Shown: one piece after another, positions 1-51,490 of the stretch
How positions within the stretch are numbered: position 1 is the first letter of the stretch
How the letters are laid out: each line of letters starts with the position of its first letter
Source: Magnetospirillum sp. 15-1
GTDB taxonomy: Bacteria > Pseudomonadota > Alphaproteobacteria > Rhodospirillales > Magnetospirillaceae
NCBI RefSeq assembly: GCF_900184795.1
Contig: NZ_FXXN01000026.1
Span: 314,064-378,063 of the forward strand
Reading direction: 5' to 3'
Length of the DNA: 64,000 nucleotides
Position numbers and translations under genes: made by a program
Notes under the pieces: generated by a model
Databases searched by the model: none
Told to the model about the DNA's origin: nothing
The model's input: the letters and a program-made list of their open reading frames with translations, nothing else

Positions 1-1
1 G

Positions 2-3000
2 CCGGTCCAGGCGGTTTTCCTGCTCGCCCCCGCCCCCGAGATCGCCGCCGCCCTTCGCGGTGCCGGCATCGCCATCGAGGCCCCGGCGGCGGCGGACGGC
101 GACGATCTCTCGCGCATCGAAGCCATGCGCCGGAATGCGCTGGCCGCCTTGGCGGCGGGCAAGCCCCTGGCCTCGGTCGGCTGGACCGACGATCCCTTGG
201 GTCTGGCGGGAGCCGCGATGCTGGCGGCCCTCGCCGCCGAGGAACCGGGTCTGAAACTGGTGTCGGCGGCAGTCGAGCCGGAATTGCGACATTCGGCCCA
301 TCTCGCCGAGGCGTTGGCGACGGTGCTGGGAGCCTTCGAGCTCGGCCACCGGGAATGGCGCATCGGCCTCGGCGGGGACGGGAGGCCGGTCTGGCGGACG
401 CGCCGTTTCCTGGCGGTGGAAACGGCCCCGGCGGTCCCGCCGCCGCAGGGTGGCGTCTGGCTGATCACCGGCGGCGGCGGCGGGCTCGGCGCGATCTTCG
501 CCCGCCACCTTGCCCGGACGGGCGCGGCACTGGCGCTGGTGGGCCGCAGGCCCCCGGATCAGGGCATCCAGGCCTTGCTGGCGGAGCTTCGCCGGATGGG
601 CGCGCGGGCGGAGTACCGTGCCGCCGACGTCGCCGACAGCGGTTCGCTCGGGGCGGCGCTCGGCCAGCTCAGGACTCTCCTGGGGCCCTTCACCGGGGTG
701 ATCCATGCGGCCGGAGTGCTCGACGACCGCCGGTTCGGCGACAAGACGGCGGAAAGTTTCAGAAGGGTGGTCTCGCCCAAGGTGGTGGGCGCACGCCTCC
801 TCGATCACCTTACGGAAGCAGACCCGCTGGAGCATTTCGTCCTGTTCTCTTCCGCCGCGCCGTGGATGGGCGGGGCCGGACAGACGGATTACGCCTTCGC
901 CAATCGGTATTTGGACGAATTCGCCCTTTGGCGGGAACGGCGGCGGCGGGACGGCGGGTGTCCGGGGCGGACCATCGCCATCGACTGGACGCTGTGGCGG
1001 GATGGCGGAATGCGCCCGGACAGCGCGGCACTGGAGATGCTGTCCCGGGAAACGGGGCTGGATGCCCTGGCCGAGGCGGCGGGAACGGCCGCCTTCGACC
1101 GGGCCCTGGCCCTGGCGGGGGCGCAGGTACTGGTGGCTTCGGGCCCTTCCGACGCGCCGGCCTTGTGCCGTCTTCGCGGGGAAGCCCCGCCCACCCGGCC
1201 CGGAGCCCAACTCGCCGCCCGGCCCCTGGTGGAGATCGTCGTCGAGGCGATGCGGCTGGACACCCCGCCCGAACCCCACCAGGACCTGCGCGATCTCGGC
1301 CTCAGTTCCATCACCGCCATCCGGCTGGTCAACCTGCTGAAAGAGTGTTTCGGGACGGCGCCCAGGGTGGGCGACATCCTCGCCAATCCGACGCTCGCCG
1401 CGCTGAGCGCCACCGTGGCGACGGCGGCTCCGCGGCCCGAATCCCCATTCTCCGAGGGCCAGAAGGCTCTGTGGACCCACTATCGGCTGGCGCCGGACAG
1501 CGCCGCGTACAACATGCCCCTGGCGCTCCGGCTGGACCCGGCCGTGGATGCGGCCCGGCTGCGCGACGCGGTGTTGCGGGTCGCCGCCGCGACCCCGGCC
1601 TTGCGTGCCCGCTTCAAGGATGATTCCCCGGAGCCGGTCCAGGTGGCCGACGACCGGCCGCCGGAGGTGGCCCTGACCCGGTTGGGGGCCGTGGCGGAGG
1701 CGGACCTGACCGAAATGCTCCGGCGGGCCGCCAAGGCGCCGTTCCGCCTCGAGGAGGAGCCCGCCTTCCGCGCCCATGTCTTCGTCGATGCCGAGCCCGG
1801 GCCGATCCTGCTGGCGGTGTTCCACCACATCTCGTTCGATGGCGTCTCGATCCAGCTGTTTCTCGACGCGCTGGGGGCGGCGTTGGCGGACAGGCCCGTG
1901 CCCCCGGCCGCGCCCTATGCCGATTTCGTGGACTGGCAGCGGCGCCACCTGGCGAGCGCCGAGGCGGAACGAGAGCTGGAGTGGTGGCGGTCGGAACTGG
2001 CGGCGCCCATCGCGCCGCTCGACCTTCCCACTCCGCTGAGACCGCGTCCCTCCCGGCCCGGCTCCGACGGCGCCACCCTTGCCGTGACGCTCGATCCGGC
2101 GCTGGTGACCGGCATGCGCGAGGCGGCGCGCCGGACCGGCGTCACCCCCTTCACCGTCGCCCTGGCCGCCTGCCGGACGCTGCTCGCCACCTATGTCGAG
2201 GGCGGTCCCGTCCGGCTGGCCGTTCCGGTGACGCTCCGGCCGGAGCCCGCCCTGGCCGGGACCATGGGCCATCTGGTCAACATGGTGGTGATCGGCGACC
2301 AGACCCGGCCGGACGAGGATGTCGCCTCTTCGCTGCGCCGGTTGGGCGGCAAGGTGACGGCGGCCCTGGACCGCTCCGGCGTGCCCTTCTCCATGGTGCA
2401 ACGGGCCGTGGCCGAGGCGCGGGGACGGCCCACGGCCCTGTCCGAGATGTTTCACGGCGCCTTCTACTACCAGGATTGGCTGGCGAGGACGCCGGCCGGA
2501 AACGGCTTTTCCTATCGTCCGCTGCCCGGTATCCACCATGAGGGCGAGTTCGAGTTGGTGGTCGAAGTGTTCGCGGCCGCCGACACGACCGAATTGCGGG
2601 TGAAGTACGATCCCCTGCGGATCGACCCCGGCACGGCCCGATTGCTGGCGGATCGCTATGTGGGATTGTTGGAGCGGCTGGTCGCCGACTCCGCTTCGAC
2701 GCTCGCCCGGCTGGCGGCCCCCACCCCCCGGGAAGCGGAGCGGCTTTCGGCGTGGAACCGCACGGAGGCCGCGCACGATCTTGACGATACGCTGATCCCG
2801 CGTTTCCGGCGCCAGGCCGACGCTTCGCCCGACCGCGAGGCGGTCGCCTGCCGGGGCCGGTCTTTCACCTACCGCGACCTCGACGCGGCGAGCGCCGCTT
2901 TCGCCCGGACCCTGGCGGCGCGGGGAATCGGGAGGGGCGATCGGGTGGGCATCCTGCTGGAACGCTCGGTCGATCTGGTGGCCGCCTTGCTGGGGGTGAT

Positions 3001-6000
3001 GCGCTCGGGGGCGGCTTATGTGCCGCTCGACCCCGCCTACCCCATGGAACGGCTGGCCTATATGGTGTCGGATTCGGGAATGGCGGCCATCGCCACCGGA
3101 CCCGCCCTGGCCGACAGGGCGAGGGAGCTGGGGGCCGAGCCCGTAATGGTCCCCGGGGCCGACGACGCCGGGACCGACGGCGCCGGGACCGGCGGCGAAC
3201 CGCCCGCCCCCCGATCCTCGGACACCGCCTATGTGATCTACACCTCCGGTTCCACCGGACGGCCCAAGGGCGTGGCGGTCAGCCACGGCAACCTGATCAA
3301 TTTCCTGCTGTCCATGGCGGCGAGGCCGGGGCTCTCGGCGGAGGACCGGCTGCTGGCCGTCACCACCATCTGCTTCGACATCGCCGGCCTCGAGCTTTAC
3401 CTTCCCCTTCTGGTGGGGGCGACGGTGGACGTCGCCACCGAGGACGTGGCCCGCGACGGCGTCAGGCTCCGCCGCCAACTGGAAAGCGGCCCGATCTCGG
3501 TCATGCAGGCGACCCCCGCCACCTGGCAGATGCTGCTGGCCGCCGGGTGGCGGCCCAACCTGCGGCGCATGCTGGTCGGAGGAGAGGCCCTGCCGCGCGT
3601 CCTGGCGGAACGCCTGGGGGGCGGGGATGGATTGTGGAACGTCTACGGCCCCACCGAGACGACCATCTGGTCCACGGCCGGCAAGGTGGATATCGGTGGC
3701 CGCGTCACCGTGGGCACCCCCATCGACAACACCCGTATCGCGGTTGTCGACGCCGCCGGCGAGGTGGTGCCGGTGGGGGCGGTGGGGGAACTGCTGATCG
3801 GCGGAGCGGGGGTCGCGCAGGGCTATTGGCGGCAGGCCGATCTCACCGCCGATCGGTTCGTGGACCGGGGCGGGCCGGACGGCCTGGTGGCGAAGTGGTA
3901 CCGCACCGGCGACCTCGCCCGCCTGCTCGCCGACGGGTCCCTGGAGATTCTGGGGCGTAACGACCAGCAGGTGAAGCTGCGTGGGCACCGGATCGAGCTG
4001 GGCGAGATCGAGTCGACGATCATGCGCCATCTGGGCGACGCCGACTGCGCCGTGGTGCTGAGGAGGGATGGTGGCGGCGCCGAGATGCTCACCGCCTTCT
4101 ACGTCCCGGGGACCGACGATCCGCCGCCGGCCCGACGAATGAGGATGCTGGGCCGCTGGCTGCCCGATCACATGATTCCTGCCGGCTGGGTGAAGCTGGC
4201 GGCCCTGCCCCGTACCGACAACCTCAAGACCGACCGCAAGGCTCTGGCCGAGTGGTCGGACACCGGATGCGCCACGGCCCCGGCCGCTCCCCCGGCCCGT
4301 TCCCCGATCACGGCGGCGGGTCTCGGAACCGGCGAGATCGAGACGGCACTGGCCGGAATCGTCGCCGCCCGCGTCGGGCATGACATAACGCCCGCCGATC
4401 TTGCGTCACCCTTCGTTTCGCTGGGGGTGGATTCGGTCAGGGTGGTCGACGTGGTGCGGGACGTGAACGCCCGCTTCGGGCTCGATCTCACCCCCACCGA
4501 CGTCTTCAACCATCCCAGCCTTGCCGCCTTGGCGGGGCGAATCGCCACTCTGATGCCGGCCGCCCCCCCGGTTCGCGGGACGGCGGGGCCGGTCCCGGCC
4601 GGGACCGGCGACGTGGCGGTCATCGGTTATGCCGCCCGCTTTCCCGGCGCCCGGAATGCCGGGAATTTCTGGCGCAACCTCGCCGCCGGCCGGTGCTCCA
4701 TCACCGAAACGCCGGCATCCCGCTGGCGCTGGCAGGACATCTTCGATCCCCGTCCGCAGAATCCCGGCACCAGCTACAGCAAGTGGGGCGCCTATCTCGA
4801 CGATATCGAGATGTTCGACGCCCCGTTCTTCGGCATGCTGGAATTCGAAGCGTCGCGCACCGACCCGCAACAGCGCCTGTTCCTCGAAATGGCCTGGATG
4901 GCGTTGGAGGATGCCGGCTATTCGGGAGCGGCGGTGGACGGGGCCGGCTGCGGGGTCTTCGCCGGCGCCGCCTTCGGGGACTATCACCGGCTGGTCGAGA
5001 AGGCGGGCCATTACGACGCCTTTTCCATGCTCGGCGCCAGCCCGTCGCTCCTTCCCGCCCGCATCGCCTATCTGCTGAACCTCACCGGCCCGACGGTGGC
5101 GGTGGATACCGCCTGCTCGTCCTCGCTGGTGGCGGTGCATCAGGCCTGCCAGAGCCTCAACGCGGGCGAATGCGCCATGGCCCTGGCCGGCGGCGTCTAT
5201 CTTTCGGTCACCCCCCTGGCCCAAATGATCTCGGCGGCGGCCGGCATCCTGTCCGCCGACGGAACGGTCCGGCCCTTCGACGCCCAGGCGGGGGGCATCG
5301 CCATCGGCGAAGGGGCCGGCGTGGTGGTGCTGAAGCCGCTGGACCGGGCGCTGGCCGACGGCGACACGGTTCGCGCCGTGATCAGGGGAAGCGGGGTCAA
5401 CCAGGATGGACGGACCAACGGCATCACCGCGCCCAACGCCCTGTCCCAGGCCGCCCTCATCGCCTCCGTGGCCGAACGGGGCGGAATCGACGCCGGCCGC
5501 ATCTCCTATATCGAAACCCACGGAACGGGCACCCGCCTGGGCGATCCGGTGGAGATCGACGGAATCCGCCGCGCGCTGGGGGGCGGCACGTGCGCGCTGG
5601 GCTCGGTGAAGGCCAATATCGGCCACGCCTATCAGGCCGCGGGCATCGCCGGCCTGATCAAGCTGATCCTGTGCCTGGAGCATCGGCAAATCCCGCCCCA
5701 GATCGGCCTTTCGACCATCAATCCGCTGCTGCGGCTCGACGACGGAGGATTGCGCATCCCCCGCGTGCTGGAAGACTGGAACGCCGGCCCCACCAGGATC
5801 GGCGGCGTCAGCTCCTTCGGCTTCAGCGGCGCGAACGCCCATGTGCTGGTCGAGGAGGCCCCGGCCCCGCCGCCCGTCCCGCCGCCGGCCTCGGGCGATG
5901 TCCCGGATGAGGTGATCGTGCTGTCCGCCCTGGACGAGGACCGGCTGCGGGCCATGGCCGCCAATCTCCGGGAACGCCTGGAAGCGGCCGGCCCGAGCCT

Positions 6001-9000
6001 TGCCGACGTCGCCCATACTCTTCAGGCGGGACGGGCCGTCTTCGCCTGCCGGCTCGGCTTCATCGCCCGATCGACGCATGAGGCGGCGGCGGCCCTCGCG
6101 GCCTTCGCCGCGGGCGACCCGACCGGCCCCCGGTCGGTTACGGTGGTGCCGGGGCGGACCATGGTGGGCGCCGCCGATCCCACCAGCCAGCTCGCCGCCT
6201 GGATGGCCGGCGATACCGTCGATTGGGCCATCCGGCGAGCCCGGCATCCCGCCCGGCGCATTCCGCTTCCCGGCAGCGTGTTGCGGCCGGTGCGCTGCTG
6301 GATCGACGCGGTTCGGGAGGTGGAGGCGCCGGCCCCCCGACCCGCCGCTCCGCCCCCGCCGCGAGACGGTTCCCCGCCCCCGGTACTGTCCATACTGGCC
6401 GAGTACTGCTCGCTCCGGCCGCAGGACCTCACGCCGGAGACCCACCTGGAAGCCGATCTGGGCCTGGATTCCATCCGCCTGATGGGACTGGCGGCCCGTC
6501 TGGTCGCGGTCGGAATCGACATTCCCATGGCGAAGCTGGCGCAGGCGCGGCTGGTGGGCGATCTGGCGGCCCTGGCCGGCGCGTCCCCGCCGCCGCCAGC
6601 TCCGTCCCGGACGGAGAGCGAACCCCGCGTCATCCCGCTCCTGGACGCGCAGATGCTGTTCCTGCTGGGGCACCACCTGATCGATTCCAGCTCGCTGTGC
6701 TCGTGGGTCCGCCTTGGCGGCTCATTCGACCTGGAACTGGCGCGACGGGCTTGGCAGGCCCTGGTGGATCGGGCACCGGCGCTCCGGATCGCCTTCACCC
6801 GGCCGCCGGGGGGAGAGCGGCTGGGCGACATCGGCGCCGTGCTGTGGCCGGCGGAAAGCCGGACGGTTCCTACGCTGGAACTCGAGGAGCTTTCGGCGGA
6901 TGCCGGCGGGCAAGCCCGGCTTCAGGCCTTCTTCGACACCCAGCTCAACCGGGAATGGGATCTGGTGGGGTGGCCCCTTCATCAGTTCCAGGTGCTTCGC
7001 CTGGGAACGGACGACCACATCCTGGCCTTCACCAACGAACATCTGATTTCCGACGGCATCGGCAACCAGGCCGCCCTGCGGGGGTTCCTCGAGATTTACG
7101 GCGCCCTGGCCGAGGGTCGGGAGCCCTCGTGGAACGAGGGGCTGGACGACGGGGCCTATGTGGCCCTCGTCGAAGCCATGAACGCGCGTTGCTTCCCCGA
7201 TGTGGGCGTGGGCACGGGCGACGGCGGCGCTCCCTATTCCTGGAACCCCGAGAGCCGGGCGATCGACGATTTCAGGCCACTCTTCACCAATCGGACGCAT
7301 GTGTTCGAGACCGGCCACACCGACAGGTTGAAGCACGCGGCGGAGCGGCTGGGCGTGTCGATGAACAGCCTGCTGGTGACGGCTTTCGCCCGTGCCGCCC
7401 GGTCGACCGACGGTCGGGGCGGGGACGGCGTGGCGGTGCAGGTCCCCACCGCCGGCCGAACCGTCGGCGGCCACGACGCCGGCCGCATCCTGGGCTGCTT
7501 CGCCCAGAACCTGACCGCCACCTTGCCGGAGGGGGACTGGGCGGAGGCGGCCCGCCGGTTCGCCGATATGCTGGCCGAGGACATGGCCGGCCACCGCGAT
7601 TGGGCGATCACGCGCCAGTTGGCCGGCACCGCCGGCCGCGAGGTCCCCCTGGTGGACGGCCGCGTTCCGGACGTGCTGCGGTCGGCATTCCGCTCCCGGT
7701 TGCGCTCCAATCTCTATGCCCCCTATGTGGGCGAGACCGGCATCGCCGCCCGGTACGGGGGGCTGGCCGTCGCCGGATACCGGGCGGGCACCGTCAACGC
7801 CGCCGGGACCATCGACCTGCTGCACGAGATTTTCCGGGGCCGGCTGCATTCGTCATGGAACTGGGACGCCAAGTTCTTCCCCGCCCAGGTCATCGAGCGG
7901 CTGGAGGCGGCCTTCCTGAGCGAGCTGGACCACGCCATCGCCGCCGCCGAGGATGTTCCGGTTCCTCCCAGGCCGTCCGACGTCCCGTCGGCGGATGGGC
8001 GCCTTGAAACCCTGAAGGCCCTGGCCTCGGAAGTCTGTGGACAGGAGATCACCGACGTTCACGCCGACCTGGAAGTGAATTTCGGCCTGGATTCGCTGAT
8101 GATGGTGCGGCTGGTCACCCGGCTGCCGGCCGGGTGGCTGGCGGGGGTGGAGCGGGGGCGGCTGCTGACCGCGCGTTCGCTCGCCGGCATACTGGCCAGG
8201 CTTGATGGCGCCTCGGCCCCGATGCCGGCCGCGACACCCATCGAGGCGATCACCGCCCAGGCGGCACGGACCCCCGATGCCGTCGCCATCGTGGGTGGGA
8301 AGGAACGGCTCACCTACGCCGAGATGGACCGGCTCGGAACCCGGGTGGCCGAGGCGCTGGTCGCTCGCGGCGTCAAGGCCGGCGACATCGTTGCCGTGCT
8401 GCTTGCCCCCGGCCCGTCATTCCTGGTGGCCGTCCAGGGGATTCTGAAGGCCGGGGCCGCCTATCTGCCGATGGACCCCAGCCATCCCGGCGACCGGCTC
8501 GCCTTCATCGCCGGCCATTCCAAGGCCGGAATACTGCTGACCGAGCCGGGATTGCGGGAGCTTGCCGCCCATGCGGCGGCCCATGGGGTGGAACCCGTCC
8601 TGGTGGACGACCTGACCGGTTGGACCGGCGGTCCCCGCCCGGCATTGCCGGCGATCGATCCCCAGGCGCCCATGGTCGTGCTTTACACCTCGGGCTCCAC
8701 GGGCAGGCCCAAGGGCGTGGTGCTGAACCACCAGGGCTATGCCAACCGCCTGGCCTGGCATCAGGAGCGGTTCCGCCTCCAGCCCGGGGAAGCGGTGCTG
8801 CACAAGACCTCGGCCGGCTTCGACATCTCGGTGTGGGAACTGTTCTGGCCGCTGATGTTCGGCGGCACGGTGCATGCCCTGGAGCGGGCCACGGCCCAGA
8901 ACCCCTGGGCCCTGGCCGATTACGTCCAGGCCCATTCCATCGCCGTCATGCACTTCGTCCCCTCGATGTTCGGGGAGTTCCTGGGTGCGCTGTCGGGCGA

Positions 9001-11059
9001 GGGGCGGACGTTTCCCTCGCTCCGGTGGCTGATCTTCAGCGGCGAGGCCTTGCCGGTCCACCATGTGCGGCGATGGTTCGCGGATTACGGTTCCACCTGC
9101 CGTCTCGCCAACCTGTACGGCCCCACCGAGGCGTCCATCGACGTGACCTGCCATGTGATGGACGGGGCGCCCGGTCCCGATACCGTCCGCCTGCCCATCG
9201 GGAAGGCGCTGCCCAACGTGCAGATGTATGTGCTCGATGCGCAATTGCGGCCGGTCCCCGACGGCGAGCAGGGGGAGTTGTGCATCGGCGGAATCCAACT
9301 GGCGGTGGGCTATCTCGATGCCCCCGACCTCACGGCCGCCGCCTTTCCGGCCCGGGCGCTGCCGGGCCTGGTGGGCGGGCGCATCTATCGCACCGGCGAC
9401 ATCGCCATCCGTTCGCCGGACGGCACCTTCGACTATCTGGGGCGTATGGATTCCCAGGTGAAGATCCGGGGGTTCCGGGTGGAGCTGGGCGAGATCGAGG
9501 CGGTACTGCTGCGGCATCCGGCGGTGGACGAGGCCGCCGTCCTGGCCGAGGAAGGCGACGACGGGCACAAGCGTCTCGTCGCCTTCCTCGCCGGCCGCAG
9601 GACGCCCGATGCCGGGATCAAGGAATTCCTGGCGGAACGCCTGCCCCACTACATGATCCCCCACCGCATCGTCTGGCTCGGCCGCCTGCCCAAGAACCCC
9701 AACGGCAAGCTGGACCACCGGGCTTTGAAGGCGGGGCCGGAAATATCGGGTGCGGCGGCTCTGCCCCTCGCCCCGGCGCAAAGATGGCTGGTGCGGCATT
9801 TCCCACGGCCGTACAACTGGTGGGGTTATACGAGGTTCGTCTGCAAGTTCCGGATCGACCACGCAGTCCTTCGGGCCGCCTTCGCTTTCCTGCTGAAACG
9901 CCATCCCGCCCTGCGGACCGTGGTGCGCGAGACCGGCGGGCAATGGGCGCAGGTGGTTCTGCCGCCCGAGAGCCTGGACGATATGAGAATCGAGGTCATC
10001 GACGGTGCCGGTCAGGATGCGGACGGGCGGGACGATCTCCTCGCGGAAAAGGCGCTGGCGCTCTGCGAGGGCTTCGATATCGGAACCTGGCCCCTGGATG
10101 GGGCGATCATCCTGACGCGCGCCGACGGATGGTCGGAGTTCTGCATGGTCAACCATCACATCAACAGCGATTTCGTCTCGAGCGCCGTCCTGTTCCGCGA
10201 GTTCTGGCTGGCTTACGACGCCCTGGCGGCCGGTCGGCCCGTTCCGGCGCCCCCCCCCCCGGCCACGCCCGCCGATCTGGTGAACCACCTGACCGGGCTG
10301 GAGCGCGGCGGCGATCTCGAGCGCGACCTGGCCTACTGGCGGACCGCCCTGGACGGCCTGCCGGCCCGGCCCGCCTTCGCCCCCGATCACCCGGCCGCCC
10401 CCAACACCGAGGCGGAGGCCGGCGGTATCGAGGCCAGGATCGGGGCGCACGACGCCGAAATCCTGATGCGCCAGGGCAAGGCGCGGTTCGGCTGCACCCT
10501 CTACCCGCTGCTGCTGGCCCCGCTCTACCGGGCGATCGCCGAAGAATCGGGCGTCGCCACGGTGGCGGTGAGCCAGCGCATGAGCGGCCGGGACCTGGGA
10601 CCCGGCGGGCCGACGCTGGTCGAGGCGGTGGGAAATTTCGCCGTCCACTTCCCGTTGGTGGTCCGGAATGTGGAGGCCGTGGGCTGGACCGGGCTGGTGG
10701 AGGCCATCGCCGCCGGCCTGTCGGGCGTACCCCGTGGCGGAGTCACCTATGACTGGCTGGGGGTTCCCGGCCTTTACCCGGATGATTCCTTCGCGCCGGT
10801 GCGGGCCAACTATCTGGGGCATCTGCCGGCGCCGTCATCGGACCGCTTCGAGATGCCCGCGCGCCATTACAGCCGGCGCCTCGCCCCCGCCCGGCAAAAG
10901 CGGCCGGCGGTGGTGGAAATCCACTTCGCCGTGGTGCCCGAAGGCATCGACATCTCGCTCACCTGGTCGCGCCTCCAGTACCGCGCCGGCCGGGTCGAGG
11001 GGCTGCTGGAGCTTTACCGCCACCATCTGGACGGATTGCTGGCCGAGGTGGGGGGATAG
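2..11059 (+). CDS. Hybrid trans-AT polyketide synthase / nonribosomal peptide synthetase megasynthase, 5'-partial. The reading frame is open from nt 2 with no stop before the first ATG at 125. Visible domains: KR (about 2-1100, Rossmann motif GGVWLITGGGGGLG); ACP (about 1230-1440, DLGLSSI); C1 (1447-2740, HHISFDG); A1 (2790-4250, YTSGSTGRPKGV); PCP (4330-4560, LGVDSV); KS (4610-5890, DTACSSSLVAVHQAC, with a trans-AT docking linker and no cis-AT, 5890-6350); ACP (6370-6600, LGLDSIRL); C2 (6620-7950, EHLISDG); carrier (8000-8200, FGLDSLMMV); A2 (8230-9740, YTSGSTGRPKGVV); C3 (9760-11059, HHINSDF).
   Basis: One 3644-aa ORF carrying canonical KR, carrier, condensation (HHxxxDG variants), adenylation (A3 core YTSGSTGRPKG, A8 GRxDxQVKIRGxRIELGEIE) and ketosynthase (DTACSSS, HGTGT) motifs. 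No AT domain follows the KS, while discrete AT genes lie nearby, so this is a trans-AT system. Frame 2 has no stop codon between nt 2 and 125. Confidence 0.9.
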   Translation, partial: PVQAVFLLAPAPEIAAALRGAGIAIEAPAAADGDDLSRIEAMRRNALAALAAGKPLASVGWTDDPLGLAGAAMLAALAAEEPGLKLVSAAVEPELRHSAHLAEALATVLGAFELGHREWRIGLGGDGRPVWRTRRFLAVETAPAVPPPQGGVWLITGGGGGLGAIFARHLARTGAALALVGRRPPDQGIQALLAELRRMGARAEYRAADVADSGSLGAALGQLRTLLGPFTGVIHAAGVLDDRRFGDKTAESFRRVVSPKVVGARLLDHLTEADPLEHFVLFSSAAPWMGGAGQTDYAFANRYLDEFALWRERRRRDGGCPGRTIAIDWTLWRDGGMRPDSAALEMLSRETGLDALAEAAGTAAFDRALALAGAQVLVASGPSDAPALCRLRGEAPPTRPGAQLAARPLVEIVVEAMRLDTPPEPHQDLRDLGLSSITAIRLVNLLKECFGTAPRVGDILANPTLAALSATVATAAPRPESPFSEGQKALWTHYRLAPDSAAYNMPLALRLDPAVDAARLRDAVLRVAAATPALRARFKDDSPEPVQVADDRPPEVALTRLGAVAEADLTEMLRRAAKAPFRLEEEPAFRAHVFVDAEPGPILLAVFHHISFDGVSIQLFLDALGAALADRPVPPAAPYADFVDWQRRHLASAEAERELEWWRSELAAPIAPLDLPTPLRPRPSRPGSDGATLAVTLDPALVTGMREAARRTGVTPFTVALAACRTLLATYVEGGPVRLAVPVTLRPEPALAGTMGHLVNMVVIGDQTRPDEDVASSLRRLGGKVTAALDRSGVPFSMVQRAVAEARGRPTALSEMFHGAFYYQDWLARTPAGNGFSYRPLPGIHHEGEFELVVEVFAAADTTELRVKYDPLRIDPGTARLLADRYVGLLERLVADSASTLARLAAPTPREAERLSAWNRTEAAHDLDDTLIPRFRRQADASPDREAVACRGRSFTYRDLDAASAAFARTLAARGIGRGDRVGILLERSVDLVAALLGVMRSGAAYVPLDPAYPMERLAYMVSDSGMAAIATGPALADRARELGAEPVMVPGADDAGTDGAGTGGEPPAPRSSDTAYVIYTSGSTGRPKGVAVSHGNLINFLLSMAARPGLSAEDRLLAVTTICFDIAGLELYLPLLVGATVDVATEDVARDGVRLRRQLESGPISVMQATPATWQMLLAAGWRPNLRRMLVGGEALPRVLAERLGGGDGLWNVYGPTETTIWSTAGKVDIGGRVTVGTPIDNTRIAVVDAAGEVVPVGAVGELLIGGAGVAQGYWRQADLTADRFVDRGGPDGLVAKWYRTGDLARLLADGSLEILGRNDQQVKLRGHRIELGEIESTIMRHLGDADCAVVLRRDGGGAEMLTAFYVPGTDDPPPARRMRMLGRWLPDHMIPAGWVKLAALPRTDNLKTDRKALAEWSDTGCATAPAAPPARSPITAAGLGTGEIETALAGIVAARVGHDITPADLASPFVSLGVDSVRVVDVVRDVNARFGLDLTPTDVFNHPSLAALAGRIATLMPAAPPVRGTAGPVPAGTGDVAVIGYAARFPGARNAGNFWRNLAAGRCSITETPASRWRWQDIFDPRPQNPGTSYSKWGAYLDDIEMFDAPFFGMLEFEASRTDPQQRLFLEMAWMALEDAGYSGAAVDGAGCGVFAGAAFGDYHRLVEKAGHYDAFSMLGASPSLLPARIAYLLNLTGPTVAVDTACSSSLVAVHQACQSLNAGECAMALAGGVYLSVTPLAQMISAAAGILSADGTVRPFDAQAGGIAIGEGAGVVVLKPLDRALADGDTVRAVIRGSGVNQDGRTNGITAPNALSQAALIASVAERGGIDAGRISYIETHGTGTRLGDPVEIDGIRRALGGGTCALGSVKANIGHAYQAAGIAGLIKLILCLEHRQIPPQIGLSTINPLLRLDDGGLRIPRVLEDWNAGPTRIGGVSSFGFSGANAHVLVEEAPAPPPVPPPASGDVPDEVIVLSALDEDRLRAMAANLRERLEAAGPSLADVAHTLQAGRAVFACRLGFIARSTHEAAAALAAFAAGDPTGPRSVTVVPGRTMVGAADPTSQLAAWMAGDTVDWAIRRARHPARRIPLPGSVLRPVRCWIDAVREVEAPAPRPAAPPPPRDGSPPPVLSILAEYCSLRPQDLTPETHLEADLGLDSIRLMGLAARLVAVGIDIPMAKLAQARLVGDLAALAGASPPPPAPSRTESEPRVIPLLDAQMLFLLGHHLIDSSSLCSWVRLGGSFDLELARRAWQALVDRAPALRIAFTRPPGGERLGDIGAVLWPAESRTVPTLELEELSADAGGQARLQAFFDTQLNREWDLVGWPLHQFQVLRLGTDDHILAFTNEHLISDGIGNQAALRGFLEIYGALAEGREPSWNEGLDDGAYVALVEAMNARCFPDVGVGTGDGGAPYSWNPESRAIDDFRPLFTNRTHVFETGHTDRLKHAAERLGVSMNSLLVTAFARAARSTDGRGGDGVAVQVPTAGRTVGGHDAGRILGCFAQNLTATLPEGDWAEAARRFADMLAEDMAGHRDWAITRQLAGTAGREVPLVDGRVPDVLRSAFRSRLRSNLYAPYVGETGIAARYGGLAVAGYRAGTVNAAGTIDLLHEIFRGRLHSSWNWDAKFFPAQVIERLEAAFLSELDHAIAAAEDVPVPPRPSDVPSADGRLETLKALASEVCGQEITDVHADLEVNFGLDSLMMVRLVTRLPAGWLAGVERGRLLTARSLAGILARLDGASAPMPAATPIEAITAQAARTPDAVAIVGGKERLTYAEMDRLGTRVAEALVARGVKAGDIVAVLLAPGPSFLVAVQGILKAGAAYLPMDPSHPGDRLAFIAGHSKAGILLTEPGLRELAAHAAAHGVEPVLVDDLTGWTGGPRPALPAIDPQAPMVVLYTSGSTGRPKGVVLNHQGYANRLAWHQERFRLQPGEAVLHKTSAGFDISVWELFWPLMFGGTVHALERATAQNPWALADYVQAHSIAVMHFVPSMFGEFLGALSGEGRTFPSLRWLIFSGEALPVHHVRRWFADYGSTCRLANLYGPTEASIDVTCHVMDGAPGPDTVRLPIGKALPNVQMYVLDAQLRPVPDGEQGELCIGGIQLAVGYLDAPDLTAAAFPARALPGLVGGRIYRTGDIAIRSPDGTFDYLGRMDSQVKIRGFRVELGEIEAVLLRHPAVDEAAVLAEEGDDGHKRLVAFLAGRRTPDAGIKEFLAERLPHYMIPHRIVWLGRLPKNPNGKLDHRALKAGPEISGAAALPLAPAQRWLVRHFPRPYNWWGYTRFVCKFRIDHAVLRAAFAFLLKRHPALRTVVRETGGQWAQVVLPPESLDDMRIEVIDGAGQDADGRDDLLAEKALALCEGFDIGTWPLDGAIILTRADGWSEFCMVNHHINSDFVSSAVLFREFWLAYDALAAGRPVPAPPPPATPADLVNHLTGLERGGDLERDLAYWRTALDGLPARPAFAPDHPAAPNTEAEAGGIEARIGAHDAEILMRQGKARFGCTLYPLLLAPLYRAIAEESGVATVAVSQRMSGRDLGPGGPTLVEAVGNFAVHFPLVVRNVEAVGWTGLVEAIAAGLSGVPRGGVTYDWLGVPGLYPDDSFAPVRANYLGHLPAPSSDRFEMPARHYSRRLAPARQKRPAVVEIHFAVVPEGIDISLTWSRLQYRAGRVEGLLELYRHHLDGLLAEVGG

Positions 11060-11061: not shown

Positions 11062-11403
11062 TCAGACTTCCCAGTGTTCCTGGGCCTGGCCGTTCTCGAC
11101 CCGGAAGATATCCACCACCTCGATGGGCGAGGCGTAGCCGGGCGGCGGATTGGCCATGAACACCTTGCCGCGCACCACCACCAGATTCCCGATTTCGACG
11201 ATCCCGGTCATCTCGACCCTGAGGTCCGGCGACATTTCCAGATACCGGCCGAAGGCGGCCTTGAACCCCGCGCGCCCTTGCGGCACGCCGGCGGTATTCT
11301 GGATGTAGCCGGCGGCGATCAGCTCGTCGGCGGCGGACAGGTCGTGGGCATTGAAAATGTGCTCCCAGATGGCCGTCACCACCTCCTTGGGGGAAAGGGT
11401 CAT
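11062..11403 (-). CDS. SnoaL-like / NTF2-fold protein (polyketide cyclase or ester cyclase-like), about 113 aa
   Basis: C-terminal 113 aa of ORF 11062..11853, starting at Met MTLSPKEVVTAIWEHIFNAHDLSAADELIAAGYIQNT. Matches the NTF2-like SnoaL family pattern. Convergent with the megasynthase stop (2-nt gap). 4-nt overlap with the upstream ECH gene. Confidence 0.5.
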   Translation of the reverse strand: MTLSPKEVVTAIWEHIFNAHDLSAADELIAAGYIQNTAGVPQGRAGFKAAFGRYLEMSPDLRVEMTGIVEIGNLVVVRGKVFMANPPPGYASPIEVVDIFRVENGQAQEHWEV

Positions 11404-12209
11404 GGGTTGGGCTCCTTGCCGTCGGTTAAGGTCGGGGACGCCCACGGCGCCATCCCGGTTTCCAGATAGCGCCACAGGCTGGCGCGCAACGCGGGGCGGT
11501 CGGTAAGCCCGGTGATGGCGTCGACCGCGCGGGCTTCGTCCGCCGGGTCCATGGGAAGGCCGCCGTGAAAGAGGGCCTTCACCACCGCCGCGGACCCGGC
11601 CGGCAGCCGGCCGAGGCGAAGCGACAGGCGCCTTACGGCACCATCGACCGAGCCATCGGCCACGATCTCGTCCACGAGACCGTGCGTTTCCGCCGTCGTC
11701 GCGGTGACCGGCTCGGTGGTCAGCGCCATGGCGGCTGCGCGATGGGCGCCGATCCGCCGTTTCAGGTAGAGGCCGGCCAATGCCGGGACCAGCCCCCATA
11801 GCGCCTCGGGCAGGGCGAAGCGGGCGGCGGGCGTGGCGATCACCCGATCGCACGCGGCGGCAAGGCCGACGCCGCCGCCGAGAGCGGCTCCTTCCACCAC
11901 CGCCACGGTGACCAGCGGCGATCCGGCCAGCCGGCGCAATACGCCGGCGAAAGCCTCGTGCAGTCTCCGGCTGGTCTGTCCGTCGGGCAGGTTGACGACA
12001 TCGCGGAAATCCATGCCGGAGCAGAATTCGTCCTTGCCGCCCTCCACGGCCAGCAGCACCGCGCCCTGCTCGGCCGCCCGGTCGAGGACCGCCGACAATT
12101 CGCCCAACATCGCCATGGAAAGGGCATTGCCGGAGTCAGGGCGCTTCAGGGCGACCCGCCAGGCGCGTCCGGTGACGGCGACGTCGAGCGTGCTCCAGGT
12201 TCCGGCCAT
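11400..12209 (-). CDS. Enoyl-CoA hydratase/isomerase (crotonase) family protein, the ECH of the HMGS beta-branching cassette
   Basis: 269 aa with a crotonase fold signature (VAVVEGAALGGGVGLAAACDRVIA). Positioned directly downstream of the HMG-CoA synthase homolog, as in pksH/pksI-type cassettes. Confidence 0.8.
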   Translation of the reverse strand: MAGTWSTLDVAVTGRAWRVALKRPDSGNALSMAMLGELSAVLDRAAEQGAVLLAVEGGKDEFCSGMDFRDVVNLPDGQTSRRLHEAFAGVLRRLAGSPLVTVAVVEGAALGGGVGLAAACDRVIATPAARFALPEALWGLVPALAGLYLKRRIGAHRAAAMALTTEPVTATTAETHGLVDEIVADGSVDGAVRRLSLRLGRLPAGSAAVVKALFHGGLPMDPADEARAVDAITGLTDRPALRASLWRYLETGMAPWASPTLTDGKEPNP

Positions 12210-12217
12210 TCCCGCCC

Positions 12218-13483
12218 TCAGCTCCAGCCGTAGATGCGGTGATAATCCTCGATCCCCTTCAGCACCAGAAGCCCCCTGTCCTTGAATCGCTGATCATAGA
12301 TGTCGCGGAACGGCGAAATATCCACCTCTCCGTCCTTGACGCCGAACAGCCACGGGGCGTTGAGGTCGAGGATGCGGTCATAGTCGGGGATGGAGAGTTT
12401 GCGCCGCGCCGCCAGTTGGGCCTGCGTCCCCATGGACCGCATCCTTTCCGCCGACCGGGCATCGGCGACCCCCGAAAAGAACTCGGACGAACACCCCGAT
12501 CCGTAGGAGAACAGGCCGATGCGCTTGGGCAGGGTGAAGTCCATCCCGTCGAGAAGGCCGGCGAGCGCGATGAAGACCGTGGCGGAATAGGCGTTTCCCA
12601 CCTGCGCGCAGAATTGGAGCGACGGCGCCACCCTCCGATCGAAATCCGCGTCGATTTCCGCCGGGGCCATCTTCTTGAGCCGGCGCAGCATGGTGCGGTG
12701 GGCGCCCTTGACCATGCCCGCGAAGGGGGTGTGGAAGGCGAGCGCGCCGAAGCTTTGGAGGAAATCCGCCCCGTCCACCCGCGCCGCATAATCCGCGAAG
12801 GCGCCGTCCAGGCATTCCAGATAGGCCATCAGGGACAGGTCGGCATTTCCGGTTTCTATCTCGGCGGTGGGGCGGCAGGTGTCCATCACCTCGTAGCTGC
12901 ACAGGCCGTTGGCGCCCAGGTCCAGGTCCAGGATCACCGGCCTGTCGCTGACCAGCATGGCCGCCGCGGCGACCCCCTGGGATGGTTCGGCGTAACCGAG
13001 CTTGACCGACGGACGGGCGACGTCCGTGGCGATGACCAGCGCCGTCCGTCCCGGCATCAGCCCGGAGGCCACCTGATTCGTCGCCATCTGCAGGGCGGCC
13101 GTCGCCCCGTAGCAGGCCTGCTTGACCTCGAACACCCGGCAGGACCGGCTGAGCCCCAGATGGTCGTGAACGTAGGTGGCCAGCGCCTTGCCGAAATCGA
13201 TGCCCGATTCGGTCGAGGTCACCAGGAGGGCGATGGACGCGCGTTCCTCGTCCGACAGGCGGTCGATGATGGGCTTGGCGGCATTGACCGCGTTGGTCAC
13301 GGCATCCTCGCAGGGCAGGTTCACCGCCTTGCGCCGCATCATCAGATTGGCCTGGCGGGCGGGGTCGAGGCCCCGCGCCACGAACAGATCGTCCACTTCG
13401 ATGAAGGCCTGGGTACCGTAGACGCTCAAGTATTCGATGCCGACGCGGCGTTCGTTTCCGTCCATCCCGTCCTCATTTCCCAA
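12218..13483 (-). CDS. HMG-CoA synthase-like protein (HCS/PksG family) for polyketide beta-branching
   Basis: 421 aa with HMGS family motifs (VGIEYLSVYG at the N-terminus, catalytic Cys context EVKQACYGATAAL, NAYSATVF). The alternative start MDGNERR is 18 nt downstream. Confidence 0.85.
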   Translation of the reverse strand: MGNEDGMDGNERRVGIEYLSVYGTQAFIEVDDLFVARGLDPARQANLMMRRKAVNLPCEDAVTNAVNAAKPIIDRLSDEERASIALLVTSTESGIDFGKALATYVHDHLGLSRSCRVFEVKQACYGATAALQMATNQVASGLMPGRTALVIATDVARPSVKLGYAEPSQGVAAAAMLVSDRPVILDLDLGANGLCSYEVMDTCRPTAEIETGNADLSLMAYLECLDGAFADYAARVDGADFLQSFGALAFHTPFAGMVKGAHRTMLRRLKKMAPAEIDADFDRRVAPSLQFCAQVGNAYSATVFIALAGLLDGMDFTLPKRIGLFSYGSGCSSEFFSGVADARSAERMRSMGTQAQLAARRKLSIPDYDRILDLNAPWLFGVKDGEVDISPFRDIYDQRFKDRGLLVLKGIEDYHRIYGWS

Positions 13484-14756
13484 TGGCGGCGCGGATCACC
13501 ACCGCCGTATGGATGCCGCCGAAACCGAAGGAGTTGCTGACCATGGTGCCGATGGCCGCGTCGCGCGGCCCGGCCCCCACCAGATCGAGCCGGTCGGTGA
13601 CCGGATCATCGAGATTGCGGTTGGGATGGAGGAAGCCCTCTTCCATCTGAAGGATCGCGGCCACCGCCTCGACCAGCCCGGCCGACCACAGCCCGTGGCC
13701 CAGCAGACCCTTGGGCGCGTTGACCGCCACCCGGTGGGGCCCGAACAAGGCGTCCAGGGCCTCGGCTTCCGTCCGGTCGCCAAGGGGCGTGGACGTGGCA
13801 TGCGCGCTTACCGCGTCCACGTCCGCCGGCTCCAGCCCCGCCCGCCGCAGCGCCAGTTCCATCGCCCGAAACTCGGCCGCCCCGTCGGGAACGGTATGCC
13901 CGTTGCCCGAAAGGGCCGCCGCGCCGCCGGCCAGGATGGCGCGCGGCGTCGCTCCGCGCCGGGCGGCGATCTCTCCGGCTTCCAGCACGACGGCCGCCGC
14001 CGCCGCGCCCGGGATGAACCCTTCGGCGGCACGGTCGAAGGGGCGGCAGGCGCGATCCGGTTCCCGGGCGAAGGAATGTCCGCCGATGGCGCCCAGGCTG
14101 GAAAGGGCCTGGTATTCCATGGGTGAAAGATCGGCGGGAGGGGCGATGACGAGGCAGAGGTCGGCGTCTCCCCCCCGGATCATCCTGGCGGCCTGGATCA
14201 GGGCCAGATTGCCCGAGGCCGAGGCGCCGCCCACGGTCATTCCCTCACCCAACAGGCCCAGGACCTCGCTGGCGATACCCAGGGGGAAACTGTCCATGAA
14301 TCCGACCCCCCAGGCGGGCGAAAGCCATTCGGGGGAGTTCCGGAACTTCTCGTGCAGCCGGTATTGCTGGCCGGTGGTGGCGTTCTGGGCGGCAACGACG
14401 ATACCGGCCCGCTCCGGGTCGGGCGGTCCCGCCGTCAGCCCGGCCATGGCCCAGGCTTCCAGCGCGGCGAGCGTCACCGCCTGCACCGTCGGGTCCGCCC
14501 GATGCGCGAGGCGCCGGGTCCGCCGGGCCGCATCGGGCAGGCCCGGCACGAGCTCCGCCAGGGCCGCGGCGAGGTCGATCGGGGGCAACGGCGCCCGGAC
14601 GACGGGAAACGACAGGGGCGCAGGATGCTCGGTCAGGAACGCGGGGGGGAGAGCGCCCTTCAGCCCCTGCGACAGTCGGGCGAGGCCGATGCCGAAGGGG
14701 GTGACGACCCCCATTCCGGTGACGGCCACGCTGCCGGGACGGTCATAGGGCATCAC
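13473..14756 (-). CDS. Ketosynthase of the beta-branching cassette, active-site Cys replaced by Ser (decarboxylating KS-S, PksF/CurC-like)
   Basis: 427 aa FabF-like. The active-site region reads GGASASGNLAL where canonical KS has ACxSG. His motifs ISAHATSTPLGD and GHGLWSAG are present. Stop overlaps the HCS start. Start overlaps the ACP stop. Confidence 0.8.
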   Translation of the reverse strand: MMPYDRPGSVAVTGMGVVTPFGIGLARLSQGLKGALPPAFLTEHPAPLSFPVVRAPLPPIDLAAALAELVPGLPDAARRTRRLAHRADPTVQAVTLAALEAWAMAGLTAGPPDPERAGIVVAAQNATTGQQYRLHEKFRNSPEWLSPAWGVGFMDSFPLGIASEVLGLLGEGMTVGGASASGNLALIQAARMIRGGDADLCLVIAPPADLSPMEYQALSSLGAIGGHSFAREPDRACRPFDRAAEGFIPGAAAAAVVLEAGEIAARRGATPRAILAGGAAALSGNGHTVPDGAAEFRAMELALRRAGLEPADVDAVSAHATSTPLGDRTEAEALDALFGPHRVAVNAPKGLLGHGLWSAGLVEAVAAILQMEEGFLHPNRNLDDPVTDRLDLVGAGPRDAAIGTMVSNSFGFGGIHTAVVIRAAIGK

Positions 14757-14989: not shown

Positions 14990-15003
14990 CTGCCCGTCCA
15001 TGT

Positions 15004-21956: not shown

Positions 21957-21994
21957 GACGGGCGCCGTTGCCGCCGAATTCGCGGGTACCGGTG

Positions 21995-22171: not shown

Positions 22172-22203
22172 TGCACTCTCCCTCGCTTGATCGAATCTGC
22201 GCC

Positions 22204-49648: not shown

Positions 49649-49666
49649 GGTTCGATCCTCGTTCTC

Positions 49667-49712: not shown

Positions 49713-49719
49713 TCCGGGC

Positions 49720-49977: not shown

Positions 49978-49988
49978 CGCCGGTCTCC

Positions 49989-51476: not shown

Positions 51477-51490
51477 TCGGTCTTCCTTTC

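What the first reader, a model, noticed from the sequence alone, without database searches (positions are those of the whole stretch)
6370..11059. Non-canonical terminal NRPS arrangement: ACP-C-T-A-C, modified C-domain active sites and no thioesterase
After the KS-ACP module the order is C2 (active site EHLISDG, first His replaced by Glu), then a carrier domain (FGLDSLMMV) that lies before the A2 domain, then C3 (HHINSDF, Gly replaced by Phe) running to the stop codon. No carrier follows A2 and no TE/R domain is present anywhere in the visible cluster. This points to one of two things. Either A2 loads the upstream carrier and the terminal C-like domain releases the chain by amidation or macrocyclisation, or further protein partners lie outside the window. 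There is also an N-terminal HHLIDSS pseudo-motif in C2 that should not be mistaken for the active site.
Basis: partly seen in the sequence, partly recalled or inferred. Interest (0 to 1): 0.7.

Follow-up and report, generated by a model that had tools for sequence, protein, structure and literature searches.

The report
Permuted serine module ending an assembly line
The last module of this polyketide-peptide assembly line has its carrier domain in front of its serine-loading domain and ends in an altered copy of an epimerisation domain where a thioesterase would normally sit; the same cassette recurs in over 80 gene clusters from several bacterial phyla, and I found no description of it.

Summary
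Window nt 6377-11056 encodes ACP–C–T–A–"C" up to the stop codon. There is no carrier after the A domain and no thioesterase or reductase anywhere in the 64 kb.

Three things change the picture.

1. The arrangement is not a one-off. It is a conserved cassette found in 12 metagenomic proteins and 71 species-representative genomes (cyanobacteria, Clostridia, Paenibacillus, Proteobacteria, Anaeromyxobacter). It always follows a KS-(AT)-ACP module that has no reductive domains. About half of the 71 genome loci, and 7 of the 12 metagenomic proteins, also carry a C-terminal FabG-like SDR.

2. The terminal "C3" is an epimerisation-domain paralogue ("E*") by both sequence profile and predicted fold. 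It keeps HHxxxD and NYLG. The catalytic Glu of EGHGRE is Arg in every member scored, and the Gly of HHxxxDG is a bulky hydrophobic residue.

3. The A domain carries a serine code in 69 of 71 loci. The carrier in front of it keeps its Ser in 66 of 66 loci and folds as an ACP/PCP.

Best reading (inferred): A2 loads Ser onto the upstream T2, and C2 N-acylates it with the β-ketoacyl chain. E*, which has only T2 available as a carrier partner, then processes or off-loads the acyl-seryl thioester. The exact chemistry is unresolved. I found no published description of the cassette.

The parts
4610..5710 (+). KS of the last PKS module. It has no AT after it (trans-AT type), and the Cys-His-His residues are intact.
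   Evidence: Pfam PF00109/PF02801. DTACSSS at nt 5105-5125, HGTGT at 5519-5533, NIGH at 5615-5632. RhiE-like AT-less linker at nt 5918-6118.
6377..6580 (+). ACP2, the carrier of the KS-ACP module and donor carrier for C2. LGLDSIRL is at nt 6458-6481.
   Evidence: PF00550, 30 bits. NCBIfam acyl carrier protein models. Aligned in all 12 homologues.
6629..7924 (+). C2, a divergent condensation domain. Active site EHLISDG is at nt 7037-7057; the pseudo-motif HHLIDSS is at nt 6671-6691.
   Evidence: PF00668, 65.6 bits. The family profile best matches the PvdL C domain that follows its E domain (92 bits). The second His and the Asp are invariant in the family.
7991..8203 (+). T2, a carrier domain placed before its adenylation domain. 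GLDS Ser2657 is at nt 8093-8095.
   Evidence: PF00550, 27-30 bits. GxDSL in 65/66 loci and RVDSL in the other. The AF2 model (pLDDT 85) matches only ACP/PCP structures.
8255..9709 (+). A2, an adenylation domain predicted to be serine-specific (10-residue code DIWHISLIDK).
   Evidence: PF00501 and PF13193. Code read by motif alignment. D(I/V)WHxSLIDK in 69/71 loci. The closest NCBIfam models include EntF and SolG.
9761..11056 (+). HHINSDF is at nt 10154-10174. SQRMSGRD is at 10571-10594, with Arg where E domains have the catalytic Glu. ANYLGH is at 10805-10822. The stop codon is at 11057-11059.
   Evidence: The profile scores E domains at 175-189 bits against 87-98 bits for the C domains in the same PDB chains. 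The Foldseek top 12 hits are all E domains, TM 0.82-0.85. Motif alignment with true E and C domains. Family conservation.
452..4543 (+). Upstream modules on the same protein: KR (452-1003), ACP (1226-1414), C1 (1442-2746), A1 with a Gly code DILQLGVIWK (from 2804), and T1 (4349-4543). The ORF continues beyond the 5' end of the window.
   Evidence: Pfam. The frame is open from nt 2. A1 code read by hand.
11400..14992 (-). β-branching cassette: ECH (11400-12209), HMG-CoA-synthase-like (12218-13483), KS with Cys replaced by Ser (13473-14756), and a free-standing ACP (14756-14992).
   Evidence: Pfam. ASASG active site.
15004..17270 (-). Trans-acting AT-ER. The AT has GHSLGE, an Arg at +25 and AFHS, which marks it as malonyl-type.
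   Evidence: Frame plot. Pfam Acyl_transf_1, NMO and FabD_helical_ins. Motifs.
17277..18083 (-). Phosphopantetheinyl transferase.
   Evidence: Pfam ACPS/4PPT_N.
20922..22328 (-). Second AT-like protein, with GASLGE and Gln at the position of the malonyl-binding Arg. It is a candidate acyl hydrolase (proofreading or release in trans).
   Evidence: Pfam Acyl_transf_1. Sequence inspection. The AH assignment rests on my recollection of the Arg117-less signature and was not tested.

Best explanation
Window nt 6377-11056 is the final module of a trans-AT PKS-NRPS. It is one copy of a conserved termination cassette, ACP–C–T–A(Ser)–E*.

Proposed course:
1. The KS-ACP module, which has no KR/DH/ER, leaves a β-ketoacyl chain on ACP2.
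2. A2 activates L-serine and loads it onto T2. T2 lies N-terminal to A2, so this is a permuted C-A-T module.
3. C2 (catalytic second His intact) transfers the chain from ACP2 onto the seryl amine. This gives N-(β-ketoacyl)-seryl-S-T2.
4. The terminal domain E* acts on this T2-bound thioester. E* is an epimerisation-domain paralogue with a His/Arg pair where E domains have His/Glu, and there is no carrier downstream of it. It takes the place of the missing thioesterase as the last processing or off-loading catalyst.

My favoured chemistry is base-catalysed, intramolecular or hydrolytic release. One candidate is attack of the seryl hydroxyl on its own thioester, giving an N-acyl-serine β-lactone. 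The close second is α-deprotonation followed by loss of the β-hydroxyl, giving dehydroalanine.

Shown: the domain identities, their order, the motif states, and their conservation.
Inferred: steps 2-4.
For: Architecture and motifs in the window.

The same order C2-T2-A2-E* is found in 12 full-length metagenomic homologues and in all 71 loci of the species-representative genome scan. This rules out an assembly artefact or a decaying gene.

The T2 Ser is conserved in 66/66 loci, and T2 has a carrier fold.

The A2 serine code is present in 69/71 loci.

The second His and the Asp of C2 are invariant.

E* is E-like by profile, by alignment with true E and C domains, by NCBIfam (it matches the PvdL E region), and by predicted fold. 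HHxxxD is kept in 72/72, NYLG is kept in the family alignment, and Arg replaces the catalytic Glu in 69/69.

No carrier was detected after A2 in any locus, and the A2-E* spacer is too short for one in 69 of 71.

The module upstream always lacks KR/DH/ER.

The cassette is the last megasynthase in clusters seen further downstream (L001, L015).

No TE is present in 53 kb downstream in the window, nor in 10 kb downstream in Kordiimonas (L061), whose flanking modules most resemble the window's.

Established knowledge: E domains bind a single carrier at the donor side, and carriers that serve E domains carry Asp before the Ser, as T2 does.
Against: - No product or biochemical data exist for any family member.
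- Loading of T2 by A2 and the activity of C2 are inferred from position only.
- Many cyanobacterial relatives have a stand-alone type II thioesterase next to the cassette. The window has an AH-like acyltransferase homologue. Release could therefore be in trans, with E* acting only as a tailoring domain.
- Two relatives (L019, L029) have non-serine A codes yet keep the E* motifs, so the seryl hydroxyl may not be essential.
- The window has Gln where 68/69 relatives have His in SHR..GR.
- The 5' end of the gene and everything upstream lie outside the window, so a TE there cannot be excluded.
- The serine code was read by hand from motif positions, not with a trained predictor.
Confidence: 0.5

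Rival explanations
1. E* is a tailoring domain, not a release catalyst. It either epimerises the T2-bound acyl-serine using a different second base, or dehydrates it to dehydroalanine. A trans-acting hydrolase then cleaves the thioester: a type II TE in the cyanobacterial clusters, or the AH-like acyltransferase homologue in the window.
For: - E-type fold and motifs.
- T2 has the Asp-Ser carrier motif typical of carriers that serve E domains (established knowledge).
- A TEII is adjacent in many loci (L001, L004, L015, L016, L035, L037, L043, L044 and others).
- An AH-like protein lies at window nt 20922-22328.
- Loss of the second base (Glu) suits a one-base elimination better than a two-base epimerisation.
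Against: - The catalytic Glu is absent in all 69 members scored, so canonical epimerisation is unlikely.
- No TEII lies within reach in the window, in Kordiimonas L061 downstream, or in the Paenibacillus loci scanned.
- Type II TEs are usually editing enzymes.
Confidence: 0.27
2. The terminal domain works as a true condensation domain. It joins the T2-bound acyl-serine to a second substrate: either a soluble amine or alcohol, or an aminoacyl carrier on another protein encoded outside the window.
For: - It hits PF00668 at 110 bits with HHxxxD intact.
- Terminal C domains that release chains onto soluble nucleophiles are known (established knowledge).
- The region upstream of the gene is not visible.
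Against: - Profile and fold place it with E domains, which lack a working acceptor side.
- The cassette ends the assembly line in clusters seen further downstream, and no downstream NRPS gene is present.
- Many relatives carry an SDR fused directly after it rather than a docking partner.
Confidence: 0.13
3. The terminal domain is catalytically dead, a structural or docking remnant like the inactive E-like domain at the end of LgrA. The arrangement would then have no special chemistry, and the chain leaves by spontaneous or trans hydrolysis.
For: - The catalytic Glu of E domains and the Gly of HHxxxDG are both lost.
- Inactive terminal E-like domains exist (PMC10510592, read).
Against: - HHxxxD is kept in 72/72 copies across phyla at only ~30% overall identity. 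Arg at the former Glu position is kept in 69/69. NYLG and about 40 other columns are invariant.
- This pattern indicates selection on an active site.
Confidence: 0.07

Closest known systems
NRPS epimerisation (E) domains (TycA, TycB3, GrsA, PvdL E2, BacC E)
   Same: Best sequence-profile and fold matches for the terminal domain. It shares the PxQxW, HHxxxD, HGR(D/E), VGxF..P and NYLG motifs and the E-specific insertion after HGRE.
   Different: The catalytic Glu of EGHGRE is Arg. The Gly of HHxxxDG is L/M/V/F/I, and the Trp of VGWF is Asn. The domain is separated from its carrier by a whole A domain rather than following T directly. No downstream C domain receives the product.
Canonical C-A-T termination module with a TE (e.g. 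SrfA-C, EntF)
   Same: The same domain types are present. The A domain has an EntF-like serine code, and the C domain sits after the upstream carrier.
   Different: The order is C-T-A, not C-A-T. There is no TE or R domain. An E-derived domain occupies the terminal position.
Terminal condensation-type release domains (fungal C_T macrocyclases; FkbP/RapP-type terminal C; crocacin CroK hydrolytic C; enacyloxin Bamb_5915). Comparison from established knowledge, not tested here.
   Same: A condensation-superfamily domain sits at the very end of an assembly line that lacks a TE. That makes it the obvious candidate for chain release.
   Different: Those domains are C-type and sit directly after their carrier. 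This one is E-type, lies after an A domain, and has a His/Arg site. No sequence affinity to them stood out in the PDB searches.
Dehydrating C domains (C_modAA, e.g. AmbE; β-lactam-forming NocB C5)
   Same: These are condensation-superfamily domains that abstract the α-proton of a carrier-bound Ser/Thr-type residue and eliminate the β-substituent. This is mechanistic precedent for serine-directed chemistry. AmbE C_modAA is among the fold hits (TM 0.77).
   Different: They are internal domains that also condense with a downstream carrier. Both the sequence profile and the fold search rank them below E domains.
VibF (Cy-Cy-A-C-T-C) and HMWP2-type non-linear NRPSs (from established knowledge)
   Same: They show that an A domain can serve a carrier that is not its immediate C-terminal neighbour.
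   Different: In those systems the carrier is still downstream of A. A carrier directly upstream of its A domain, conserved across more than 80 loci, is not part of those systems.

Membership tests
NRPS condensation domain (applied to C2) | Matches PF00668 above the gathering score | tested here: met
   65.6 bits against a cut-off of 30.6. The match is mainly to the N-lobe, and the family profile matches the PvdL C domain at 92 bits.
NRPS condensation domain (applied to C2) | HHxxxDG with the catalytic second His | tested here: met
   EHLISDG in the window. The second His and the Asp are invariant in the family. The first position is E in 29 loci, H in 8, and N/S/T in 6. The first His is regarded as structural (established knowledge).
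Carrier protein / thiolation domain (applied to T2) | PF00550 match, conserved Ser in GxDS, and a helical-bundle carrier fold | tested here: met
   27-30 bits against a cut-off of 20.8. The Ser is present in 66/66 loci. The AF2 model (pLDDT 85) hits only ACP/PCP structures.
Canonical NRPS elongation/termination module | Domain order C-A-T, with a TE or R domain in a last module | tested here: not met
   The order is C-T-A. Only ~17 residues separate A2 from the last domain. No TE or R domain is in the window.
NRPS epimerisation domain (applied to 'C3' = E*) | E-type sequence profile and fold | tested here: met
   E domains score 175-189 bits against 87-98 bits for neighbouring C domains. The Foldseek top 12 hits are all E domains.
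NRPS epimerisation domain (applied to 'C3' = E*) | Catalytic His/Glu pair (HHxxxDG and EGHGRE) | tested here: not met
   The His is kept, but the Glu position is Arg in 69/69 (SHR..GRD; SQRMSGRD in the window). The Gly is replaced.
NRPS epimerisation domain (applied to 'C3' = E*) | Lies directly after its carrier (T-E) and hands on to a D-specific C domain | tested here: not met
   A2 lies between T2 and E*. Nothing follows E* except, in about half of the relatives, an SDR.
Serine-activating adenylation domain | Specificity code close to DVWHLSLIDK / DVWHFSLVDK | tested here: inconclusive
   The code is DIWHISLIDK in the window and D(I/V)WHxSLIDK in 69/71 loci. The positions were assigned by hand from motif alignment and the reference codes come from memory. 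No trained predictor or assay was used.
trans-AT PKS | KS without an in-cis AT, plus free-standing AT genes | tested here: met
   The KS is followed by a RhiE-like linker and ACP. An AT-ER and a second AT-like gene lie downstream.
Fungal-type terminal C_T release domain | C-type terminal domain directly after the last carrier that cyclises the chain | not tested
   The terminal position is shared. However, the closest relatives are E domains, and A2 separates the domain from its carrier. No C_T reference set was available for a phylogeny.

The most novel reading that the evidence does not exclude
The E-derived terminal domain is a new class of off-loading catalyst. In this reading an epimerase active site (His/Glu) has been rebuilt as His/Arg. 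It releases the chain from the upstream carrier using only the serine residue itself, for example as an N-acyl-serine β-lactone, or through dehydroalanine to a primary amide plus pyruvate. The C–T–A(Ser)–E* cassette would then be a previously unrecognised, self-contained chain-termination logic. It would be shared by more than 80 PKS clusters in cyanobacteria, Firmicutes and Proteobacteria, whose 3-oxo and 3-hydroxy acyl-serine-derived products are unknown.
Probability: 0.3. Interest if true: 0.85.

Novelty: new variant of a known kind. Interest (0 to 1): 0.68.

Why it matters
Chain release decides the final shape of polyketide and peptide natural products. Only a handful of release strategies are known: TE, R, terminal C, and a few stand-alone enzymes.

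A conserved cassette in which the carrier precedes its adenylation domain, and an epimerisation-derived domain replaces the thioesterase, would matter in four ways:
- It would add a new release or termination strategy.
- It would show a new way in which E domains have been repurposed.
- It would give genome-mining tools a rule for over 80 clusters, which current rule-based annotation is likely to misread as incomplete.
- It points to an unknown family of serine-capped lipids or polyketides made by common cultured bacteria (Nostoc, Paenibacillus, Ruminiclostridium). That makes the question directly testable in tractable strains.

Tried and rejected
**Literature.** Seven full-text searches found no description of the cassette. 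They covered domain strings (C-T-A-C, C-PCP-A, C-T-A-E and similar), 'epimerization-like / terminal epimerization domain', primary amide/dehydroalanine/chain release, candidate Nostoc products, 'unusual domain order', and the condensation-domain review. Subscription literature is not covered.

**Source genome.** An exact 40-mer was not found in the metagenome contigs. The exact ECH protein is not on record. The closest relative of the region is only 42% identical, so the part of the cluster upstream of the window could not be recovered.

**Full-library profile search with E*.** The ranking is dominated by giant multi-domain NRPSs, so it is useless for sizing the family.

**Dieckmann / tetramic-acid release.** This was attractive because the upstream module always leaves a β-keto group. 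I down-weighted it because about half of the family carries a FabG-like SDR that probably reduces that keto group, while E* is unchanged.

**'Serine hydroxyl is indispensable'.** This is weakened by two loci with non-serine codes that keep the E* motifs.

**The KS before the cassette as a non-elongating KS0 (enacyloxin-like transfer).** Rejected, because Cys-His-His are intact in the window and in relatives.

**The ~300-residue region after the AT-less KS in cis-AT relatives.** It shows only faint AT-remnant similarity.

**Artefact or pseudogene.** Rejected, because of the long intact ORF with GC3 of 0.87 and the conservation across 83 homologues.
Full report
**1. What is in the window**

A single reading frame is open from nt 2 and stops at nt 11057-11059. 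Its third-position GC is 0.87, so it is a real gene, cut at its 5' end.

Pfam on the whole protein and on overlapping pieces gives this order:
- KR, ACP, C1, A1, T1
- KS, with no AT and only a RhiE-type linker
- ACP (~nt 6377-6580)
- C2 (nt 6629-7924)
- T2 (nt ~7991-8203)
- A2 (nt 8255-9709)
- a last condensation-superfamily domain (nt 9761-11056), which runs to the stop

Only ~17 residues lie between the end of A2 (PKNPNGKLD) and the start of the last domain (APAQRWL), so no carrier can be hidden there. By hand-read specificity codes, A1 is Gly-type (DILQLGVIWK) and A2 is Ser-type (DIWHISLIDK). The reference positions and codes come from established knowledge of GrsA and EntF.

**2. Surroundings**

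Downstream, on the minus strand, lie the usual trans-AT accessories:
- a β-branching set: ECH, HMG-CoA-synthase-like, a KS with Cys replaced by Ser, and a small ACP
- a malonyl-type AT-ER
- a PPTase
- two ABC transporters and a Band-7 protein
- a second AT-like protein with GASLGE and Gln at the malonyl-binding Arg position, which makes it a candidate acyl hydrolase

The rest of the window is RND efflux, regulators, formate dehydrogenase, riboflavin genes and an anaerobic phenol-carboxylation cluster. No thioesterase or reductase domain is found by Pfam in any sizeable ORF, nor by tblastn with three type II TEs (best E = 0.09).

The host is a betaproteobacterium. The FDH α subunit is 96% identical to a metagenome protein and ~77% to Noviherbaspirillum, Thauera and Cupriavidus.

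**3. The arrangement is a conserved cassette**

A search with residues 2083-3644 found 12 proteins that cover the whole query at 32-42% identity. All are metagenomic, and every further hit covers only the A domain.

All 12 have ACP-C-T-A-'C' in register. Seven add a ~260-300-residue C-terminal SDR.

A profile of the last domain, scanned over one genome per species, returned 71 loci. Domain mapping by tblastn shows the same C2-T2-A2-last-domain order in all that are long enough. The taxa include:
- many cyanobacteria (Nostoc, Scytonema, Crocosphaera, Moorena and others)
- Clostridia (Ruminiclostridium, Acetivibrio, Clostridium)
- nitrogen-fixing Paenibacillus
- Gynuella, Kordiimonas, Luteimonas, Methylocaldum, Anaeromyxobacter, Desulfobacterales and a betaproteobacterial MAG

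Kordiimonas gwangyangensis (L061) has the most similar flanking modules: KR-C-A-KS-ACP-C-T-A-last domain, on a trans-AT line.

In cis-AT and FAAL-primed relatives, the cassette is a separate protein. It follows (cyanobacteria) or precedes (Firmicutes) a FAAL-ACP-KS-AT-KR-ACP-KS-(degenerate AT) synthase.

In every case the module that feeds the cassette is KS-(AT)-ACP without KR, DH or ER. Its KS keeps Cys-His-His.

In clusters seen further downstream (L001, L015) the cassette is the last megasynthase. It is followed by an MFS transporter, and often by a stand-alone type II TE. Kordiimonas has no TE in the 10 kb downstream.

**4. State of each domain across the family**

| Domain | Conserved state |
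|---|---|
| T2 | GxDSL in 65/66 loci, RVDSL in the other; AF2 model (pLDDT 85) matches only ACP/PCP structures |
| C2 | second His and Asp of the active-site motif invariant; first position E (29), H (8), N/S/T (6) |
| A2 | code D(I/V)WHxSLIDK in 69/71 loci |

The window's EHLISDG is therefore a normal family state with the catalytic His intact. The C2 profile best matches the PvdL C domain that follows an E domain. Two trans-AT MAG loci (L019, L029) have other A2 codes but keep the terminal-domain motifs.

**5. The terminal domain is an altered epimerisation domain**

- A profile of the 13 terminal domains scores the E domains of BacC, PvdL, TycB3, TycA and GrsA at 175-190 bits. The true C domains in the same PDB chains score 87-98 bits.
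- NCBIfam places it on the E region of a PvdL-type model, and places C2 on the following C region.
- An AlphaFold model (pLDDT 85, pTM 0.85) has E domains as its 12 best Foldseek hits (TM 0.82-0.85). C-type domains come next at 0.73-0.77.
- Alignment with bona fide E and C domains shows that it shares the E-specific motifs and insertion: PxQRW, HHxxxD, HGR(D/E) plus insertion, VGxF..P and NYLG.
- It differs from E domains at three points. The catalytic Glu of EGHGRE is Arg in 69/69 (SHR..GRD; SQRMSGRD in the window). The Gly of HHxxxDG is L/M/V/F/I in 72/72. The Trp of VGWF is Asn.

I therefore call it E*. About 40 columns, including HH..D, are invariant at ~30% overall identity. This argues for a working active site that is not a canonical two-base epimerase.

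**6. The SDR**

The C-terminal SDR of relatives is closest to (3R)-hydroxyacyl-CoA dehydrogenase and FabG. It is most simply the missing β-ketoreductase of the last PKS module. The window lacks it.

**7. How it most likely works**

Shown: domain identities, their order, and conservation.

Inferred:
- A2 loads Ser onto T2, the only non-PKS carrier present.
- C2 acylates the seryl amine with the β-ketoacyl chain from ACP2.
- E* then acts on the T2-bound acyl-serine. It descends from domains that engage a single carrier, and no other carrier is available to it.

E* occupies the position of the absent TE, and some lineages show no hydrolase nearby. For these reasons I favour E* as the off-loading catalyst. 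The likely chemistry is intramolecular or hydrolytic: His as base, with Arg stabilising an oxyanion or enolate.

The near-universal serine suggests that its hydroxyl takes part. It could act as the nucleophile, giving an N-acyl-serine β-lactone. It could instead be the leaving group after α-deprotonation, giving dehydroalanine. That intermediate could go on to a primary amide plus pyruvate.

A Dieckmann/tetramate route fits the β-keto donor. It does not fit the SDR-bearing half of the family.

The main rival is that E* only tailors the residue, and a type II TE or acyl hydrolase releases the chain. A true condensation with an unseen partner, or a dead domain, are less likely. See the rival explanations for the evidence on each.

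**8. Comparison with what is known, and novelty**

The parts are ordinary NRPS/PKS domain types. Three features match none of the systems I compared it with:
- the C-T-A permutation
- an E-derived terminal domain with His/Arg
- their strict association with a serine A domain and an unreduced last PKS module

Seven full-text literature searches found no description. Subscription-only papers could not be searched.

I rate it a new variant of a known kind: an NRPS termination module.

It needs two corrections. The domain is E-type rather than C_T/amidating. The arrangement is also a widespread cassette rather than a local oddity.

Noticed in passing
window 1-125: The megasynthase frame is already open at nt 2. 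The ATG at nt 125 is only the first in-window start, so the protein and the assembly line continue upstream of the window.
   Followed up: partly
window 11400-14992 (minus strand): A complete β-branching set: ECH, HMG-CoA-synthase-like, a KS with the active-site Cys replaced by Ser (ASASG), and a small ACP. Only one ECH gene is present. None of the three carriers in the visible part of the synthase has an obvious β-branching Trp flag, so the branch is probably installed on an upstream module.
   Followed up: partly
window 20922-22328 (minus strand): A second acyltransferase homologue with GASLGE instead of GHSxG and Gln at the malonyl-binding Arg position. It looks like a proofreading acyl hydrolase and could remove acyl groups from carriers in trans.
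   Followed up: partly
window 15004-17270 (minus strand): A fused trans-AT / NMO-type enoyl reductase (AT-ER). It was found only after a GC frame plot, because a longer spurious ORF in another frame overlaps it.
   Followed up: yes
window 48296-57364 (minus strand) and 57716-61272 (plus strand): An anaerobic phenol-type gene set: three UbiD-family carboxylase subunits, a CBS protein, and phenylphosphate-synthase-like PPDK_N / PEP-utilizer proteins. Next to it are two XylR-type sigma-54 activators, a flavoprotein (UbiX-like) and a MetA-pathway outer-membrane protein.
   Followed up: no
window 1-11059 versus 33319-64000: The PKS-NRPS gene has 71.1% GC against 66.5% for the distal half of the window. 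A housekeeping-type gene (FDH α) has a 96% relative in a metagenome, but the synthase has none above 42%. The cluster may be a strain-specific, horizontally acquired island.
   Followed up: partly
L015 12283-20687; L001 15478-17410: In cyanobacterial relatives the cassette is followed by an MFS transporter, a type II thioesterase, FabF- and FabH-like ketosynthases, and a DevB/DevC-like (HlyD + FtsX) exporter pair. This suggests an exported lipid-like product.
   Followed up: partly
L001 7287-9866; L015 3743-5728; L052 19988-21196: In cis-AT relatives the KS feeding the cassette has a ~37-residue insertion and intact Cys-His-His. It is followed by ~300 residues with only faint similarity to AT fragments and the post-AT linker, which looks like a degenerate AT. 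How its ACP gets an extender unit is unclear.
   Followed up: partly
L019 (Gynuella MAG) and L029 (Desulfobacterales MAG), A2 domains near 8370-9930: These are the only two loci whose A-domain specificity codes are not serine-like (DIRQLSQIEK and DIWLQILIAK). Both keep the E* HHxxxD and SHR..GRD motifs.
   Followed up: partly
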